Positions 1 to 6,434 of a stretch of DNA of 14,429 bases are shown piece after piece. Every line of letters starts with the position of its first letter. Position 1 is the first letter of the stretch. The DNA comes from a virus (Duplodnaviria > Heunggongvirae > Uroviricota > Caudoviricetes): positions 1 through 14,429 of the IMG/VR virus record IMGVR_UViG_2630968766_000006; one strand, given 5' to 3'. Below the pieces are notes generated by a model that ran no database searches, was not told the DNA's origin, and was given only the letters and a program-made list of their open reading frames with translations. The position numbers were made by a program, and so were the translations under genes.

Positions 1-1221
1 ATGGCGGGCACTAACAAGCTGAGTGATAAAAAGCTAAAGGCGCTACAGGGCGTTGAACGTGATGCGCCTGCAATGTTTGCCGATGGCGAAGGATTGAGCG
101 CGAAAGCCTCCCGGCAAGGCCAATTAAGCTGGGTGTTTTCGTATCGGCTTGGTGGGCGTGGTAGCCGTCTGGAACGTCTGACACTTGGCCGCTACCCGGA
201 TATGTCGCTAAAAGCCGCGCGCGAAAAACGTGAACAGTGTCGGCAATGGCTGGCAAACGGCCATGATCCTAAAACCGAGCTGGTACTGAGTACCGAAGAA
301 ACGCTTAAGCCGGTGACGGTCAAAGATGCGCTGGAATACTGGTTAACAAAATATGCCAGGAAAAAGCGCACCGATGAGGAGCTGGTTAGAGCACAGTTGC
401 AAAAGCACATCTACCCGCGTCTTGGTCATTATCCGCTTACCCGCTGTGAAACTCGCCATTGGGTGGCGAGTCTGGATGAAATAGGTCAGAAGCAGCCAAA
501 AACAGCGGGGCGCATGTTCCAGATCTGCAAACAGGCGTTACGGTTCTGTAAGGTTCGCCGTTACGCTTCCAGTGATGCCCTTGCCATTCTCACCATTCAG
601 GACGTTGGCGAGCCTTCCGGCCAGCGTGACCGCGTGCTATCCGATAGAGAGCTGGCGGATGTGTGGCGCTGTACTTATAGCGATGACCAGCAAGCCTACT
701 ACCTACGGCTTTTAAAAATTCTGGTGCTGTTTGGCGCTCGAACGATGGAAGTGAGGCTGTCACGCTGGTCGGAGTGGGATTTTCATTCATGGATCTGGAC
801 GGTTCCCAAAGAACACAGCAAAACTCGTGAAAAAATTGTGCGGTCGATTCCCGAAGGCATCCGCCCATGGCTGGAAGAATTGAAAAGGCAGACGGGTAAA
901 ACGGGCCTTTTATTGGGTGAGGATCGTACTCGCCAATCGGTGTCACTTAAAGGGCGCAGATTGTATAAAGATTTTCACCATAACGAGCCGTGGACGCTTC
1001 ACGATTTACGCCGGACGTTTTCCACAGGGCTAAACAATATGGGGATTGCGCCGCATATCGTCGAGCTGCTGTTAGGCCATGCTTTGCCGGGAGTGATGGC
1101 GATTTATAACCGTAGTTTGTATCTGCCGGAGAAGCTGGACGCGTTGAATAAATGGTATGAACGTTTAGAACTGTTAATCATGGATTCATCTAATATTATC
1201 ATGTTGAATAGAGGAGCTTGA
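1..1221 (+). CDS. int: Tyrosine site-specific integrase, P4-like
   Basis: 406-aa ORF; C-terminal catalytic region with HDLRRTF...LLGH...AIYNRSLY pattern typical of tyrosine recombinases (R, H-x-x-R, catalytic Y); N-terminal arm-binding-like domain. Last ~60 nt are AT-rich unlike the rest of the gene. Confidence 0.9.
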   Translation: MAGTNKLSDKKLKALQGVERDAPAMFADGEGLSAKASRQGQLSWVFSYRLGGRGSRLERLTLGRYPDMSLKAAREKREQCRQWLANGHDPKTELVLSTEETLKPVTVKDALEYWLTKYARKKRTDEELVRAQLQKHIYPRLGHYPLTRCETRHWVASLDEIGQKQPKTAGRMFQICKQALRFCKVRRYASSDALAILTIQDVGEPSGQRDRVLSDRELADVWRCTYSDDQQAYYLRLLKILVLFGARTMEVRLSRWSEWDFHSWIWTVPKEHSKTREKIVRSIPEGIRPWLEELKRQTGKTGLLLGEDRTRQSVSLKGRRLYKDFHHNEPWTLHDLRRTFSTGLNNMGIAPHIVELLLGHALPGVMAIYNRSLYLPEKLDALNKWYERLELLIMDSSNIIMLNRGA

Positions 1222-1222
1222 G

Positions 1223-1882
1223 ATGGTTAGTTTTATTAAACTCGGCATTTTTGAAAGGGAAGCTAAAACACCAGCACTAAATATTAAACAGCTCTCATTG
1301 TTGCTATGTGGTGAAAGTCCAGATTTAAAAACCGCAGAAATACCAGATAATAAAATCGAAGCATATAATATTTATTATAAGCACATAGGAAAGTGGTTTC
1401 AGTCATCTGGGGTATTTAAAGGGGGGTATACAGTACCACAGTCAGCCGATTACATGTTCGCAATGGCTTACCCAATGATAGACGAAGAACTAACCCCTGA
1501 GCCTATCAAGCGGCGTTGCCTTGAAGCGGTTGCTTCTATAGCTGGTAAAAAAAACGGTAAAGATCTGTTATTAGTTCTTGGGGGAGAGGAATTATATCTC
1601 AAAGGTGTTGAGCTAAGTCGTAATCAGCGGGGGTTACATCGCAAAGAAGATGAACAAGATAATTCAGCAAAGTTGATTGGTTTAATGGCCAAGCTACTGG
1701 CTAAAAAAATAGGACACTCATATGGCAGTGTTGATAAACCAATAACATCTGCTATTTATAATGATATTATTAAAATTGCTGACGATGAGAAAATATCAAA
1801 GAGAGGATTATCAAAATCTACCGTCTATAAAAAATTTTCTGATGCCTCCGCGTTGTTGTCAGTGAACGATGATATGGAATGA
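1223..1882 (+). CDS. Hypothetical protein (219 aa), AT-rich cargo gene with C-terminal HTH-like motif (ISKRGLSKSTVYKKF)
   Basis: ATG at 1223 two nt after int stop (TGA 1219-1221), GAGGAG Shine-Dalgarno at 1211-1216; long ORF in a markedly AT-rich segment (about 1150-2170); no antisense ORF of comparable length; C-terminal segment resembles Hin/resolvase-type HTH recognition helix. Confidence 0.6.
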   Translation: MVSFIKLGIFEREAKTPALNIKQLSLLLCGESPDLKTAEIPDNKIEAYNIYYKHIGKWFQSSGVFKGGYTVPQSADYMFAMAYPMIDEELTPEPIKRRCLEAVASIAGKKNGKDLLLVLGGEELYLKGVELSRNQRGLHRKEDEQDNSAKLIGLMAKLLAKKIGHSYGSVDKPITSAIYNDIIKIADDEKISKRGLSKSTVYKKFSDASALLSVNDDME

Positions 1883-1919
1883 TGAACAATCAACAACAAA
1901 GCTCATGTTGGGTATCGTT

Positions 1920-1966
1920 GCATAATCTGCATAATCTGCATAATCCACAAAATTTGCGAATTATGC
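1920..1966. repeat. Tandem 9-bp repeat GCATAATCT x3 (1920-1946) plus inverted copy ATTATGC (1960-1966)
   Basis: Read directly: gcataatct gcataatct gcataatcc, then attatgc 14 bp downstream. Confidence 0.8.
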
Positions 1967-2050: not shown

Positions 2051-2118
2051 TTTCACTGGAATTATTATGTTTCACTGGAATAGTTACCTGTTTCAAAAGA
2101 TTCCAGACTTGCTGGAAT
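2051..2118. promoter_or_regulatory. Repeat cluster upstream of alpA: TTTCACTGGAAT direct repeat (2051-2062, 2070-2081) and inverted pair ATTCCAG / CTGGAAT (2100-2106, 2112-2118); putative operator/promoter region
   Basis: Four copies of the CTGGAAT core within 70 bp, ending about 55 bp before the alpA start codon; AT-rich. Confidence 0.45.
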
Positions 2119-2174
2119 TACTGAGTATGCATCCATTAGTATTTGCCCGAAAGCAATGAAACAATGGAGACAGC

Positions 2175-2459
2175 ATGTCTAATATTATCTTTACCCCACC
2201 GAATGCCGAACAGCGTCGCGCTCTTCTGGAAGAATATGGCTTCAAGTTCGAACGTCGCATCCGTGAGGATGAGTGTATCGAGATAACCAGCCTTTCCCGC
2301 TCTACACGTTGGAAAATGGAACAAGAAGGCCGCTTTCCGGCGCGTTGCCACTTTGGTCGTAATTCCTGCGCCTGGCTGCTTTCGGACGTTCTCTGGTGGG
2401 TGCGCAATCCGCCAACCGTTGAGAACGTAAATAACCCTTACAGCCGCAAATCCGCATAA
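2175..2459 (+). CDS. alpA: AlpA-family (P4 Vis-like) prophage transcriptional regulator / excisionase
   Basis: 94-aa ORF, TGGAG RBS at 2166-2170; sequence pattern (ITSLSRSTRWKMEQEGRFP...) typical of AlpA/Vis winged-helix small regulators; conserved position after int in P4-like and PICI elements. Confidence 0.8.
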   Translation: MSNIIFTPPNAEQRRALLEEYGFKFERRIREDECIEITSLSRSTRWKMEQEGRFPARCHFGRNSCAWLLSDVLWWVRNPPTVENVNNPYSRKSA

Positions 2460-3939: not shown

Positions 3940-4263
3940 ATGGCTAAAAAAATCAATCAGGTTAAACCTGAGGGCAAAACTCACCCTTTAATTGAGATTA
4001 ACACCCGCTGGAAAGATAACTGGGGTATCAAAATCACTATTTGCAAGGTGGAAGAAAACCGCGTGATGTATATCCGCGACGGGTACAAACATGAATGCGT
4101 ATGCTCACCGGATCGCCTGCGTCGTGAATTTTCTTTCCTCCCGGAAGAGAGCAAGGAATATCAGGCTGCAGCCATCGCCAGAGGCCGTAAACGCGCCGCC
4201 GAACTGCGTCATAGTTTGCCGGTTACCTTTGGATCGGCTGGCTGGGATAAGGGGCTGGTATGA
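3940..4263 (+). CDS. Hypothetical protein (107 aa), translationally coupled to the replication gene
   Basis: ORF ends with ATGA overlap onto the pri-rep start (4260); basic C-terminal region; no recognisable motif. Confidence 0.5.
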   Translation: MAKKINQVKPEGKTHPLIEINTRWKDNWGIKITICKVEENRVMYIRDGYKHECVCSPDRLRREFSFLPEESKEYQAAAIARGRKRAAELRHSLPVTFGSAGWDKGLV

Positions 4264-6080
4264 AGAACGCGCCGAATCTTAAACATCAACCGAAAGATAA
4301 ACATGTTGCGGTGGTTATCTTTGCCGGGGCTGATGCCTTCGCTCACGCTAAAACATGGGAAGAAGGCTGGGGATTAAAAATTGCCGCAGATAAAACACCG
4401 CCTGTCTGGCTGGGGACAAAGCAACTGGCAGAGCTGGCGAACCTGCGCATTATCGACCAGGGGCGTAAGTATGTTCGCATCTATCTTGCCGGAGATATCG
4501 AGTCTGTCCTGATTAACGCCATTGCTGAAAAACTGGCGCTGGCGGGCGTAGAGGAAGCGAAATTATATAAGGGGATACCTGACCAGAACCCGGAAGACTG
4601 GCGCGACTACCTTAACCGGATACGCGGAGAGCATGTGCGTGGTGAAGTCGGTCCGGTGGCGCAAATGATCAAACAGGAATTGGCCGTGACGCTGCCACTT
4701 AACCAGATGGGGCCGAGTCAGCGCGGTGATGTGCTGGCGGCGCATTATGGTAACGATCTGGCAATTGATGGTGATTCCGACACCGTTCACCACTATAACG
4801 GCATGGTCTGGAAACCGTTGCAGGATAAGGAACTGCAAAGAGTAATGGCGCGGATCTTCATTAAGGCAGATATCGCCTATTCACCCGCCAGTGTAAAAAA
4901 TGCGGTGGATGCCATGAAGTTAAGCCTTCCGCAGATGGGAGCGCCAGCCCGCCACCTTATCGGATTTCGTAATGGTGTATTTGATACCCGCGCCGCACAA
5001 TTCCGGGCGCATGACAAAGATGACTGGTTGCTTGTAGCCAGTGATGTTGATTTCTGCCAGCCAGAGAACGGCGAAAGCCTGGAAGCTCACGCGCCTAACT
5101 TCTGGCGCTGGCTGCAACATGCGACGGCGAAAGATGCCCGAAAATCGGATCGTCTTCTGGCCGCGTTGTTTATGGTGCTGGCTAACCGCTACGACTGGCA
5201 ATTGTTCCTTGAAGTGACGGGACCGGGTGGCAGCGGTAAAAGCGTTATGGCGGAAATCTGTACCATGCTGGCCGGCAAGGGTAACACGGTGTCGGCGAGT
5301 ATGGGCGCGCTGGAAGTACCACGCGAAAGGGCGCTGGTGGTTGGTTATTCACTGATTATCTTGCCGGATATGAGCCGTTACGCCGGAGATGGCGCAGGCA
5401 TTAAAGCCATAACAGGTGGTGACCGGGTATCTATAGATCCGAAGCATAAAGCGCCGTATTCCATTCGTATTCCCGCTGTGGTGCTGGCGGTTAATAACAA
5501 CGCGATGACATTCAGTGACCGCAGTGGGGGGATCTCCCGCCGCCGGGTGATTTTCAACTTCCCGGAGGTTGTGAACGAGAAAGACCGCGATCCTATGCTG
5601 GTGGAGAAAATCGAGGCGGAATTACCGGTCATCATCCGCCATCTGTTAACCCGCTTTACCAGGCAGGACGACGCCCGCCAGTTACTGGCTGAACAGCGTA
5701 AATCCGAGGAGGCCTTAGCCATTAAGCGCGAAGGTGATTCGCTGGTGGACTTTTGCGGCTATCTGATGGCATTGCTTGAATGTGAGGGAATGATTGTGGG
5801 TAATGCGGAAATGACGCCATTCAGCCCGCGCCGTTATCTCTATCACGCCTATCTGTCATATATGTCAGCGCATGGTCTGGGAAAGCCAGTATCACTGACC
5901 CGCTTTGGTACTGATATGCCGGGGGCGATGGCTGAATATGGCGCGGAGTATAAGCGCAGACAATGCACCAGGGGACCAGATAAAGGCCGCACTATTTCAA
6001 ACGTTCGGTTAAAGGATGAGGCGGATACATGGCTTCCGGCGGCAACGGGTATTAATACTGAACTTAACGAGGAAAATTAA
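4260..6080 (+). CDS. Replication initiator: primase / SF3 helicase (D5 N-terminal-like plus P4 alpha C-terminal-type helicase domain), PICI pri-rep
   Basis: 606-aa ORF; Walker A GPGGSGKS (LEVTGPGGSGKSVMAE) and downstream Walker B-like hydrophobic stretch ending in D (LIILPDM) as in SF3 helicases of phage/plasmid primases; followed immediately by an iteron-rich AT-rich region. Confidence 0.85.
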   Translation: MKNAPNLKHQPKDKHVAVVIFAGADAFAHAKTWEEGWGLKIAADKTPPVWLGTKQLAELANLRIIDQGRKYVRIYLAGDIESVLINAIAEKLALAGVEEAKLYKGIPDQNPEDWRDYLNRIRGEHVRGEVGPVAQMIKQELAVTLPLNQMGPSQRGDVLAAHYGNDLAIDGDSDTVHHYNGMVWKPLQDKELQRVMARIFIKADIAYSPASVKNAVDAMKLSLPQMGAPARHLIGFRNGVFDTRAAQFRAHDKDDWLLVASDVDFCQPENGESLEAHAPNFWRWLQHATAKDARKSDRLLAALFMVLANRYDWQLFLEVTGPGGSGKSVMAEICTMLAGKGNTVSASMGALEVPRERALVVGYSLIILPDMSRYAGDGAGIKAITGGDRVSIDPKHKAPYSIRIPAVVLAVNNNAMTFSDRSGGISRRRVIFNFPEVVNEKDRDPMLVEKIEAELPVIIRHLLTRFTRQDDARQLLAEQRKSEEALAIKREGDSLVDFCGYLMALLECEGMIVGNAEMTPFSPRRYLYHAYLSYMSAHGLGKPVSLTRFGTDMPGAMAEYGAEYKRRQCTRGPDKGRTISNVRLKDEADTWLPAATGINTELNEEN

Positions 6081-6094
6081 AAATAGTCTTTAAA

Positions 6095-6391
6095 CTGTCT
6101 ACCGTATCTACCAGATAATTAATTGATATATAAATCAGTGAGTTAAATTGGTAGATACCTGGTAGACAGTAAGAGACTAAGTGTCTTCTGTATCTACTTT
6201 ATTTTTTATTAAAGCTCTAAAAGCCAAAGTGCAAAAAAGCACTCTGGAACAAATTCAATCGCTTATGTGACTATCTTACATTTATAAGTAGAGGGTCTGG
6301 TAGAGAGTAGTAGATACATCAAAGGGTAAGTGTTTACCACTTAACTTAATGAAAATAATAGTAAATTTCATGGGGGTAGACAGGTAGACAG
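6095..6391. repeat. Putative replication origin: iterons GGTAGACAG / GGTAGATAC in direct and inverted orientation within AT-rich DNA
   Basis: CTGTCTACC-GTATCTACC (6095-6112); GGTAGATAC-ct-GGTAGACAG (6150-6169); GTATCTAC (6190-6197); GTAGATAC (6310-6317); GGTAGACAG-GTAGACAG (6375-6391). Located directly 3' of the primase/helicase gene. Confidence 0.6.
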
Positions 6392-6434
6392 TTTGAGCAC
6401 ATAAGTTTATTTTTTCTTATTTACGAGGATTTTA

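What the first reader, a model, noticed from the sequence alone, without database searches (positions are those of the whole stretch)
1150..1882. AT-rich cargo gene fused behind the integrase: 219-aa protein with C-terminal HTH-like motif, no recognisable family
GC content drops sharply from about position 1150, inside the last ~20 codons of int, and stays low to about 2170. The ORF starts 2 nt after the int stop with a strong RBS, so it is co-transcribed with int. Its N-terminal ~170 aa show no motif I recognise; the C-terminus (DIIKIADDEKISKRGLSKSTVYKKF) resembles a resolvase/Hin-type HTH recognition helix. The int-proximal slot is where satellites carry accessory or interference genes, and the compositional break suggests separate acquisition. 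It may be an island master regulator (a functional analogue of the SaPI Stl repressor, which enterobacterial PICIs have been described as lacking) or a DNA-binding anti-phage/interference protein. This is the best candidate for something undescribed in the window.
Basis: partly seen in the sequence, partly recalled or inferred. Interest (0 to 1): 0.75.

Follow-up and report, generated by a model that had tools for sequence, protein, structure and literature searches.

The report
Satellite gene paired with alpA-promoter repeats
The 219-aa gene behind the integrase of this E. coli phage satellite is real and uncharacterised, and it always travels with four DNA repeats on the promoter of the satellite's master switch alpA, so it is probably an undescribed regulator of that switch rather than loose cargo.

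Summary
An AT-rich (37% GC) 219-aa ORF at 1223-1882 starts 1 nt after the int stop codon, behind a GAGGAG ribosome-binding site. It has no Pfam, NCBIfam or PADLOC match, only PHROG 30524 (unknown function).

The window is a capsid-forming PICI between gcd and hpt in E. coli. The family is small (48 clusters at 50% identity) and Enterobacterales-only in every named or fetched case. In every intact locus read, down to 27% identity, it sits directly after int and before an alpA-like gene.

The int-alpA slot is an exchangeable cassette. All 79 readable loci of 80 with a near-identical AlpA hold one AT-rich gene there, from at least six families.

ORF219 cassettes alone carry four phased TTTCA[AC]TGGA[AT]T boxes (window 2051-2118) over the predicted -35 of the alpA promoter: 12/14 dereplicated loci against 0/24 (p = 3e-8). 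The boxes follow ORF219, not AlpA or Int.

Support for an HTH is weak, and confident AlphaFold models have no PDB neighbour.

Best reading (about 0.4): a cassette-specific DNA-binding gatekeeper of alpA. The main rival is anti-phage cargo. All of this is inference; no binding or phenotype was tested.

The parts
1150..1221 (+). 3' tail of int (last ~24 codons), which is the left boundary of the exchangeable cassette
   Evidence: GC falls here. Homology to KSC9-type integrases stops at 1172. Homology to other ORF219-type E. coli islands starts at 1150. The C-terminal tail IMDSSNIIMLNRGA differs from AGNHSNIVILKAGEK in the 87%-identical KSC9 integrase.
1211..1216 (+). Ribosome-binding site GAGGAG of ORF219, inside the end of int
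   Evidence: Read directly from the sequence. In 13 of 13 family loci the start codon lies within -4 to +4 nt of the int stop codon.
1223..1882 (+). ORF219: a 219-aa all-alpha protein of PHROG 30524, the proposed cassette-specific regulator
1919..1945 (+). Three tandem copies of TGCATAATC (a 9-bp iteron), with a partial inverted copy GCATAATTC at 1958-1966
   Evidence: The sister island L004 has two copies. Iterons of 9-10 bp with other sequences were seen at the same place in nearly every family locus examined (TRF called none in L015).
2051..2062 (+). Box 1, TTTCACTGGAAT
2070..2081 (+). Box 2, TTTCACTGGAAT, 19 bp from box 1
2091..2106 (+). Box 3 / central element TTTCAAAAGATTCCAG. It holds the inverted heptamer ATTCCAG (2100-2106), which forms a 7-bp inverted repeat with box 4
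2107..2118 (+). Box 4, ACTTGCTGGAAT (heptamer CTGGAAT at 2112-2118), overlapping the predicted -35 position of the alpA promoter
2137..2142 (+). Predicted -10 hexamer TAGTAT of the alpA promoter (inferred)
   Evidence: The pattern TAnnnT holds in 12 of the 13 aligned loci (A and final T invariant), 17-19 nt after box 4. No transcription start site has been mapped.
2131..2169 (+). alpA leader: anti-SD ATCCATT (2131-2137) pairs with SD AATGGAG (2163-2169)
   Evidence: This is a side observation, and the fold energy is not significant on its own (z = -0.83).
2175..2459 (+). alpA, the master activator of Gram-negative PICIs and the proposed target of regulation
   Evidence: Pfam Phage_AlpA E 2.1e-10. 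Role taken from PMC6092414.

Best explanation
ORF219 is the protein half of an exchangeable regulatory cassette that sits between int and alpA in enterobacterial phage satellites.

Proposed mechanism:
- It is translated together with the integrase, so it is made while the island is quiescent.
- It binds, probably as an oligomer, to four TTTCA[AC]TGGA[AT]T boxes spaced about two helical turns apart. The last box lies over the -35 position of the alpA promoter.
- It thereby gates expression of AlpA, the activator that triggers excision and replication.
- The most likely sign is repression, relieved when a helper phage is active. That would make it functionally comparable to the Stl/Rpr repressors of Gram-positive PICIs.

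Shown here: the synteny, the coupling to int, and the exclusive co-occurrence of the protein family with the box array, independent of AlpA and Int type.

Inferred: DNA binding, the exact promoter position, the sign of regulation and the link to the helper phage.
For: 1. Fixed position.
- The intact family loci read have the order int, ORF219 homologue, alpA-like gene; two decayed copies (L013 IS1-truncated, L021 partial) have lost alpA.
- This holds across at least six insertion sites, integrases down to 23-26% identity, protein identity down to 27%, and three satellite types (cf-PICI, classical PICI, P4-like with P2 capsid/Ash/Ogr genes).
- The only hits in the phage and plasmid collections are also satellites.

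2. Coupling to int. The start codon lies within -4 to +4 nt of the int stop in 13 of 13 loci.

3. The box array.
- Four boxes sit at fixed distances from the alpA start (about -123, -104, -83, -67). They are conserved where the rest of the spacer cannot be aligned.
- After dereplication, 12 of 14 family loci have at least 2 boxes against 0 of 24 loci with other slot genes (Fisher p = 3.4e-8).
- Among 80 IMG/VR loci selected only for an AlpA at least 77% identical to the window's, box hits on the forward strand occur in the ORF219-family loci (plus L062, an island with the family's spacer where the gene itself was not recovered), and in none with another slot family.

4. Double dissociation from AlpA.
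- L002 and L025 have AlpA 87% identical to the window's and no boxes.
- L030, L032 and L117 have a different AlpA clade (L030 and L032 21% identical; L117 a short 71-aa type) and keep the boxes.

5. Separation test. In Salmonella pS2122_1, 3.2 kb of other genes separate the homologue from alpA. A three-repeat array with the same spacing still abuts alpA. Its 3' half is changed (CCGGAC), and the protein's C-terminal motif is changed as well (GLGRGTFYEV).

6. Parallel variation of boxes and motif. TGGAAT goes with KSTVYKK, T[AG]GAAA with R[SA]T[IL]DKK, and TGGATT with KSTF[SA]xK.

7. Promoter position. Box 4 lies 17-19 nt upstream of a TAnnnT hexamer present in 12 of 13 aligned loci.

8. Weak HTH signals.
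- hhalign places residues 187-207 on the AlpA HTH, P 0.0034.
- Pfam Phage_AlpA E 0.024 at the same place in P0037.
- HTH_20 E 0.053 at residues 19-42 of P0044.
- Brinker HTH E 0.38 at residues 44-70.

9. Literature. Whether Gram-negative PICIs have a global repressor is stated to be unclear, and alpA is switched on by the helper phage through an unidentified route (PMC6092414).
Against: - No recognised DNA-binding domain passes any threshold.
- The C-terminal motif is modelled as helix, 9-residue loop, helix, not a canonical tight turn.
- The protein is not markedly basic, pI 6.7-8.9.
- Gene and boxes are neighbours, so co-inheritance is partly expected from linkage. The motif/box co-variation rests on few independent lineages.
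- The slot is AT-rich and variable like a defence hotspot. The PICI literature places immune genes at the 5' end (PMC11364771).
- Islands with other slot genes, and per the 2018 description apparently EcCICFT073 with no slot gene, regulate alpA without these boxes.
- Pantoea L029 lacks a recognisable array, and Proteus has only a variant form.
Confidence: 0.4

Rival explanations
1. ORF219 is accessory anti-phage or interference cargo in the 5' hotspot of the satellite. It would be a single-gene defence or helper-interference protein expressed with int. The box array would simply be this cassette's version of the alpA upstream region, bound by some other factor.
For: - The slot holds at least six unrelated AT-rich single genes between conserved int and alpA. 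That is the signature of phage and satellite defence hotspots.
- PICIs are reported to carry immune systems at their 5' or 3' ends (PMC11364771).
- Int type is shuffled against slot type.
- The gene would be expressed in the quiescent state.
- The fold is unrecognised, as is common for new defence genes.
Against: - ORF219 and seven other slot proteins have no PADLOC hit.
- The family was never seen in prophage hotspots, defence islands or true plasmids, only in this slot.
- This reading does not explain why a conserved, phased four-box array over the alpA -35 accompanies only this family. The array persists across different AlpA clades and across a 3.2-kb insertion.
Confidence: 0.25
2. ORF219 is a helper-responsive positive regulator. 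It would be a sensor-activator bound at a class-II position overlapping -35, switching alpA on only when a helper-phage product is present.
For: - The box and promoter geometry is the same as for the best explanation.
- The predicted promoter has a poor -35 (TGGAAT) and a weak -10, typical of activator-dependent promoters.
- alpA is known to be activated by the helper phage through an unknown route (PMC6092414).
- The protein has two domains, an N-terminal domain with no structural relatives that could be a sensing module and a more conserved C-terminal part.
Against: - There is no direct evidence for DNA binding.
- AlpA itself autoactivates.
- Islands with other cassettes lack the boxes yet must also respond to helpers.
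- Constitutive co-expression with int fits a keeper of quiescence at least as well.
Confidence: 0.15
3. ORF219 is an integrase partner: an architectural or directionality factor for integration and excision.
For: - It is invariably adjacent to int and translationally coupled to it.
- One distant homologue has a weak Mu I-gamma Pfam hit, E 0.012.
Against: - It pairs with integrases from 23% to 100% identity and with many att sites.
- Closely related integrases (87% identical) work with quite different slot genes.
- The conserved DNA motif lies at the alpA promoter, nearly 2 kb from the int-proximal end of the island, not at att.
- AlpA already supplies the excision function in these elements.
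Confidence: 0.07

Closest known systems
Stl / Rpr master repressors of SaPIs and other Gram-positive PICIs
   Same: Both are satellite-encoded, lie next to int, and are highly variable between islands. Both are expressed in the quiescent state. The candidate operator lies over the promoter of the gene set that starts the satellite cycle. The proposed role as keeper of quiescence is the same.
   Different: Stl is transcribed divergently from the operon it represses and has a recognisable HTH_XRE-type domain. ORF219 is co-directional with int and alpA, is translationally coupled to int, and has no recognisable domain or fold. Neither binding nor derepression by a helper protein has been shown here.
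Immunity cassettes of lambdoid phages (repressor plus cognate operators exchanged as a unit)
   Same: A protein and its nearby repeated DNA sites are swapped together between conserved flanks, giving mosaic elements with alternative specificities.
   Different: There is no homology to CI or Cro. Here the sites are four direct or partly inverted 12-mers spaced about 19-20 bp apart, and the regulated gene is an activator/excisionase.
PICI 5'-end accessory immune genes (Fillol-Salom et al. 2022, as cited in PMC11364771)
   Same: Both occupy an int-proximal position, are AT-rich, vary between related islands, and are single genes of unknown function.
   Different: There is no match to known or candidate defence families. 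The family is confined to one slot and tied to a promoter-proximal DNA array. No phenotype is known.
AlpA / HTH_17-type helix-turn-helix (PF05930)
   Same: The C-terminal segment ISKRGLSKSTVYKKF aligns with the AlpA segment IEITSLSRSTRWKME, the turn and recognition helix (hhalign P 0.0034; Pfam E 0.024 in P0037).
   Different: The match is below every curated threshold and covers only 21 columns. The rest of the protein is unrelated, and the predicted loop between the helices is 9 residues.
PHROG 30524
   Same: Full-length match, E 5.6e-77. Distant homologues P0047 and P0076 match as well.
   Different: The PHROG has no assigned function, so membership explains nothing.

Membership tests
PHROG 30524 (unknown function) | Significant full-length match to the family profile | tested here: met
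   E 5.6e-77, residues 1-208 on profile positions 4-212 of 220.
Resolvase/Hin-type HTH (HTH_7) or any curated HTH family | Pfam or NCBIfam match above the gathering threshold | tested here: not met
   The window protein has 0 Pfam and 0 NCBIfam families. Across 25 family members there are only single sub-threshold hits: HTH_Tnp_Mu_2 0.012, Phage_AlpA 0.024, SpoIIID 0.037, HTH_20 0.053.
Resolvase/Hin-type HTH (HTH_7) or any curated HTH family | Tri-helical fold with a tight turn before the recognition helix, and structural similarity to solved HTH proteins | tested here: not met
   [not shown]
AlpA/HTH_17-type HTH | Profile-profile similarity of the motif to the AlpA HTH | tested here: inconclusive
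   hhalign probability 9.5%, P 0.0034, 21 columns, 38% identity. For the full-length profile, E 0.04.
Stl/Rpr-type PICI master repressor | Divergent transcription from the regulated operon | tested here: not met
   int, ORF219 and alpA are all on the + strand.
Stl/Rpr-type PICI master repressor | Cognate operator sites over the promoter of the induction genes | tested here: inconclusive
   A family-specific four-box array overlaps the predicted -35 of alpA. Occupancy by ORF219 was not tested.
Stl/Rpr-type PICI master repressor | Derepression by direct binding of a helper-phage protein | not testable with these tools
   This needs genetics or biochemistry.
Known or candidate anti-phage defence systems | Match to a PADLOC-DB model | tested here: not met
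   ORF219, two distant homologues and seven other slot proteins all give 0 families.
Known or candidate anti-phage defence systems | Occurrence in several kinds of hotspot or mobile element | tested here: not met
   Every locus read is a satellite with the gene directly after int.
Known or candidate anti-phage defence systems | Reduction of phage plaquing on expression | not testable with these tools
   This needs an experiment.
Excisionase / recombination directionality factor | Small basic winged-helix protein specific to its integrase, with sites at att | tested here: not met
   The protein is 219 aa with pI 8.3. It pairs with integrases of 23-100% identity. Its associated motif is at the alpA promoter, and AlpA is present in the island.
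Other slot-gene families (DUF6387; phrog_7144-like; 'MAIPLREYY' group) | Detectable homology to ORF219 | tested here: not met
   hhalign probability 0.14%. Only two of the seven other slot proteins match Pfam DUF6387.

The most novel reading that the evidence does not exclude
The int-alpA slot of enterobacterial PICIs, cf-PICIs and some P4-like satellites holds interchangeable regulator cassettes. Each cassette would be a fast-evolving protein plus its own DNA sites at the alpA promoter, and would decide when, and for which helper phage, the satellite switches on. ORF219 with its four-box array would be the first recognisable example. It would be the long-missing counterpart of the Gram-positive Stl repressor, built on a fold with no known relatives.
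Probability: 0.25. Interest if true: 0.8.

Novelty: new variant of a known kind. Interest (0 to 1): 0.6.

Why it matters
How Gram-negative PICIs stay silent, and how a helper phage turns on alpA, is an acknowledged gap. [quoted passage not shown]

A protein family that always sits between int and alpA, and is exclusively paired with a phased repeat array over the alpA promoter, gives a concrete candidate. It can be tested in a few days with a gel shift, a reporter and a deletion.

If confirmed, it would explain helper specificity and the mosaic structure of these islands, and it would add a DNA-binding fold with no solved relative. It would also bear on engineered PICI 'drones'.

If the gene instead proves to be a defence gene, it is a new single-gene system that current defence catalogues miss.

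Tried and rejected
- Spacer repeats as the PICI replication origin: rejected. The origin-like iterons are GGTAGAYA at about 6090-6395, downstream of the primase, and are unrelated to TGCATAATC or the boxes.
- Boxes as AlpA autoregulation sites: rejected by the double dissociation.
- Boxes or iterons as integrase arm-type sites: unlikely. The integrases range from 23% to 100% identity, and the sites lie nearly 2 kb from the int-proximal end of the island.
- Homology between ORF219 and the other slot families: not detected. A shared N-terminal 'xxLLGC' look and a similar C-terminal pattern were noticed by eye only.
- Inverted repeats after the other slot genes as operators: most look like intrinsic terminators (hairpin followed by a T run, read by eye), so no claim is made.
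- PDB sequence searches with the full and C-terminal profiles: only Brinker at E 0.38 and chance xylanase hits.
- The search for related loci with the divergent alignment A2 failed for lack of a conserved stretch. The closer alignment A1 worked.
- Co-variation of the 9-10-bp iterons with ORF219 or AlpA: none convincing. A 2-fold enrichment of the box half-site [GT]TTCA[CT] in the distal spacers is inflated by tandem copies and is absent from the window itself.
- Literature: no held paper describes this family, DUF6387 in PICIs, or a gene between int and alpA, apart from the unrelated small EcCIMP1_002. The Cell 2022 paper on PICI immune systems is not held.
Full report
**What the window is**

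The window carries, in order:
- a P4-type tyrosine integrase (1-1221; Arm-DNA-bind_3, Phage_int_M and Phage_integrase domains);
- the 219-aa ORF (1223-1882);
- alpA (2175-2459);
- a D5/primase gene (4260-6080);
- HK97-type capsid, protease, portal and connector genes, an HNH gene, and small and large terminase genes;
- the host gene hpt.

An identical stretch lies between gcd and hpt in E. coli draft genomes. The element is therefore a capsid-forming PICI of the kind described in bioRxiv 10.1101/2022.09.08.507074.

**Checking the observation**

- The ORF, its GAGGAG ribosome-binding site and the 1-nt gap after the int stop codon are as described.
- GC drops from about 0.52 to 0.37 in the ORF and 0.34 in the spacer, then recovers in alpA.
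- The drop begins inside the end of int, and that point is a real mosaic junction. Homology to the nearest complete-genome E. coli integrases (79% nt) stops at 1172. Homology to other E. coli islands with an ORF219 homologue starts at 1150.
- Pfam, NCBIfam and PADLOC give nothing. PHROG 30524 (unknown function) matches at E 5.6e-77.

**The protein family**

- The family is small: 26 clusters at 90% identity in 5.8 billion proteins and 48 representatives at 50% identity in 1.84 billion.
- Wherever a source names the organism, or a locus was fetched, it is a member of the Enterobacterales. Genera include Escherichia, Klebsiella, Enterobacter, Citrobacter, Salmonella, Yersinia, Rahnella, Brenneria, Pectobacterium, Serratia, Pantoea, Xenorhabdus, Proteus, Providencia and Morganella.
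- The most conserved positions are T91-P92, G120-G121, R136-G137-x-H-R-K-x-D-E144, L159, G195 and K204.
- AlphaFold2 gives a confident all-alpha model of nine helices (pLDDT 86). It has an N-terminal domain (1-128; modelled alone, pLDDT 89 and pTM 0.82) and a C-terminal three-helix part. They are joined by a long helix whose most conserved motif has the lowest confidence.
- Evidence for a helix-turn-helix is weak and sub-threshold:
  - an hhalign match of residues 187-207 to the AlpA HTH, P 0.0034;
  - Pfam AlpA at E 0.024 at the same place in one distant homologue;
  - HTH_20 at E 0.053 and Brinker at E 0.38 for an N-terminal segment.

**Genomic context**

In every intact locus read the gene lies directly after int and before an alpA-like gene; two decayed copies (L013, cut by IS1, and L021, partial) have lost alpA. 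This holds in:
- E. coli at two sites (gcd-hpt and yhdJ), Citrobacter, Klebsiella, Enterobacter, Yersinia, Proteus, Rahnella, Brenneria and Xenorhabdus;
- Serratia L115, Pectobacterium and Providencia;
- the 27-35% identical homologues in Pantoea, Xenorhabdus and Morganella, which sit in P4-like satellites with P2-type capsid, Ash and Ogr genes.

The neighbouring integrases range from 100% down to 23% identity. The start codon lies within -4 to +4 nt of the int stop in 13 of 13 loci.

The single hit in the phage collection is an induced cf-PICI deposited as a phage. Those hits in the plasmid collection that were opened are satellites too, including a 12-kb circular record that looks like an excised island.

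**The slot is a cassette**

- The closest E. coli island at the same gcd site has an integrase 87% identical in protein and an AlpA 87% identical, but a DUF6387 gene in the slot.
- I fetched 80 IMG/VR loci using only the criterion of an AlpA at least 77% identical to the window's. One starts at alpA, so its slot cannot be read. Each of the other 79 has a single candidate gene called between int and alpA.
- That gene belongs to the ORF219 family, DUF6387-like proteins, a phrog_7144-like family, or several others.
- Integrase type (about 87% or about 55% identical) is shuffled against slot type.
- All slot genes are AT-rich, 0.35-0.40 GC.
- None matches PADLOC, and ORF219 shows no profile similarity to the other families.
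The low GC is a property of the slot, not of this gene.

**The main new result: a DNA array specific to ORF219 cassettes**

- In the window the array consists of:
  - TTTCACTGGAAT at 2051-2062 and at 2070-2081;
  - TTTCAAAAGATTCCAG at 2091-2106, which holds the inverted heptamer;
  - CTGGAAT at 2112-2118.
- CTGGAAT occurs 9 times in the window against 2.0 expected, and 0 of 200 shuffles reach that count.
- Thirteen divergent loci align across this stretch although the rest of the spacer cannot be aligned. The alignment gives four repeats spaced 19-20 bp apart. A TAnnnT hexamer present in 12 of the 13 loci (its A and final T are invariant) follows 17-19 nt after the fourth repeat. I take this hexamer to be the -10 of the alpA promoter (window 2137-2142), so box 4 covers the -35 position.
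- After dereplication, at least two boxes are present in 12 of 14 ORF219-family loci and in 0 of 24 loci with other slot genes (Fisher p = 3.4e-8). The exceptions are Proteus, which has a variant array (CTAGAAAT) of the same layout, and Pantoea.
- The array does not follow AlpA. Islands with 87%-identical AlpA but another slot gene lack it. Islands with a different AlpA clade (L030 and L032 21% identical; L117 a short 71-aa type) but an ORF219 homologue have it.
- It does not follow Int either.
- In Salmonella pS2122_1, 3.2 kb of other genes separate the homologue from alpA. An array with the same spacing still abuts alpA. Its 3' half-site is changed, and the protein's C-terminal motif is changed too.
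- Box variants and the C-terminal motif vary in parallel in three further groups. These groups are few and phylogenetically nested.

**Interpretation**

The simplest account is that ORF219 binds this array and controls alpA.
- AlpA is the activator whose expression starts excision and replication.
- It is turned on by the helper phage through an unknown route, and its uncontrolled expression harms the cell (PMC6092414).
- ORF219 is made together with Int in the quiescent state. A repressor that is neutralised on helper activity is therefore the most likely form. A helper-dependent activator bound at a class-II position is the main variant.
- Everything beyond co-occurrence and geometry is inference.

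The strongest rival is that the slot is simply the 5' defence hotspot reported for PICIs (PMC11364771), with ORF219 as an unrecognised defence or interference gene. That reading fits the AT-richness and variability. It does not explain the family-specific array or the family's confinement to this slot. An integrase-cofactor role is unlikely, given the range of partner integrases and the position of the motif.

**Other features of the spacer**

- Upstream of the boxes, nearly every family locus examined has tandem 9-10-bp iterons; TRF called none in L015. Their sequence differs between loci, and their copy number differs between near-identical islands:
  - the window has 3 copies of TGCATAATC and its sister island has 2;
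  - Yersinia has 4 or 6;
  - the Klebsiella type has 4 or 6;
  - one IMG/VR locus has 12.
- They are not the origin iterons and track neither AlpA nor, clearly, ORF219. They remain unexplained.
- No intrinsic terminator is predicted between ORF219 and alpA. Most other cassettes, read by eye, show a hairpin with a T run after the slot gene and a spacer of only 79-207 bp.
- The alpA leader can pair an anti-SD with its SD in all locus types, with compensatory changes. The predicted -10 overlaps the anti-SD. Read-through transcripts might therefore be untranslatable while promoter-initiated ones are not. This is a side observation and was not tested further.

**Verdict**

'Undescribed', 'variable slot' and 'candidate regulator acting on the downstream repeats' hold up. 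'Hin-type HTH' and 'cargo' do not.
- The thing itself is best described as a new, structurally unassigned regulator candidate, forming one of several alternative cassettes in front of alpA.
- It is a new variant of a known kind (satellite master-regulator modules) rather than a new category.
- It makes an open question about Gram-negative PICI control directly testable.

Noticed in passing
window 6934-8100: The major capsid gene carries an in-frame premature stop. The ORFs 6934-7743 and 7771-8100 are in the same frame. The sister island L004 has an intact 388-aa gene that is 99% identical with no gaps. This cf-PICI copy, identical to L003, may be unable to build its own capsids.
   Followed up: partly
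window ~6090-6395: Origin-like region downstream of the primase. GGTAGAYA iterons lie in both orientations around an AT-rich stretch (GC 0.32-0.35). They are unrelated to the int-proximal repeats.
   Followed up: partly
window 2131-2169, and the same position in L001-L112: In the alpA leader an anti-SD (ATCCATT) can pair with the SD (AATGGAG). Other loci keep the pairing with compensatory changes (ATCCACT/AGTGGAG; CCTCCAC/GTGGAGG). The predicted -10 overlaps the anti-SD, which suggests that only promoter-initiated transcripts are translated. The fold z-score for the window alone is not significant (-0.83).
   Followed up: partly
window 1919-1945; L004, L005/L006, L001/L012/L022, L076: The 9-10-bp tandem iterons upstream of the box array behave like a VNTR. 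Copy number differs between near-identical islands (3 vs 2, 4 vs 6, up to 12). The period is conserved but the sequence is not.
   Followed up: partly
L002, L023-L028, L033-L112 (between int and alpA): All 79 readable IMG/VR loci of 80 with this AlpA type, and the seven E. coli genome loci opened, carry exactly one AT-rich gene of unknown function in the slot (DUF6387-like, phrog_7144-like and others). None is in PADLOC. Several share an N-terminal 'PLREYYxIxRAAxLLGC' motif. Most are followed by what looks by eye like a terminator hairpin.
   Followed up: partly
window 331, 3467, 6459, 11269, 13417: Five further exact CTGGAAT heptamers lie outside the array, all on the + strand. The window total is 9 against 2.0 expected. 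Whether any is a secondary site is unknown.
   Followed up: no
L118 (NZ_CP148430.1, 12,152-bp circular 'plasmid') and L117 (NZ_CP093490.1): Some PLSDB 'plasmids' that hold distant homologues look like an excised circular PICI (L118). L117 has chromosomal genes (bamB, der) beside the island.
   Followed up: no
L013 (E. coli S163-2) and L062 (IMG/VR): These are decayed copies. In L013, IS1 truncates the ORF219 homologue and the alpA-to-primase region is missing. In L062 only an 86-aa ORF with no similarity was called upstream of alpA, while the L001-type spacer and box array remain.
   Followed up: no
[not shown]
   Followed up: no
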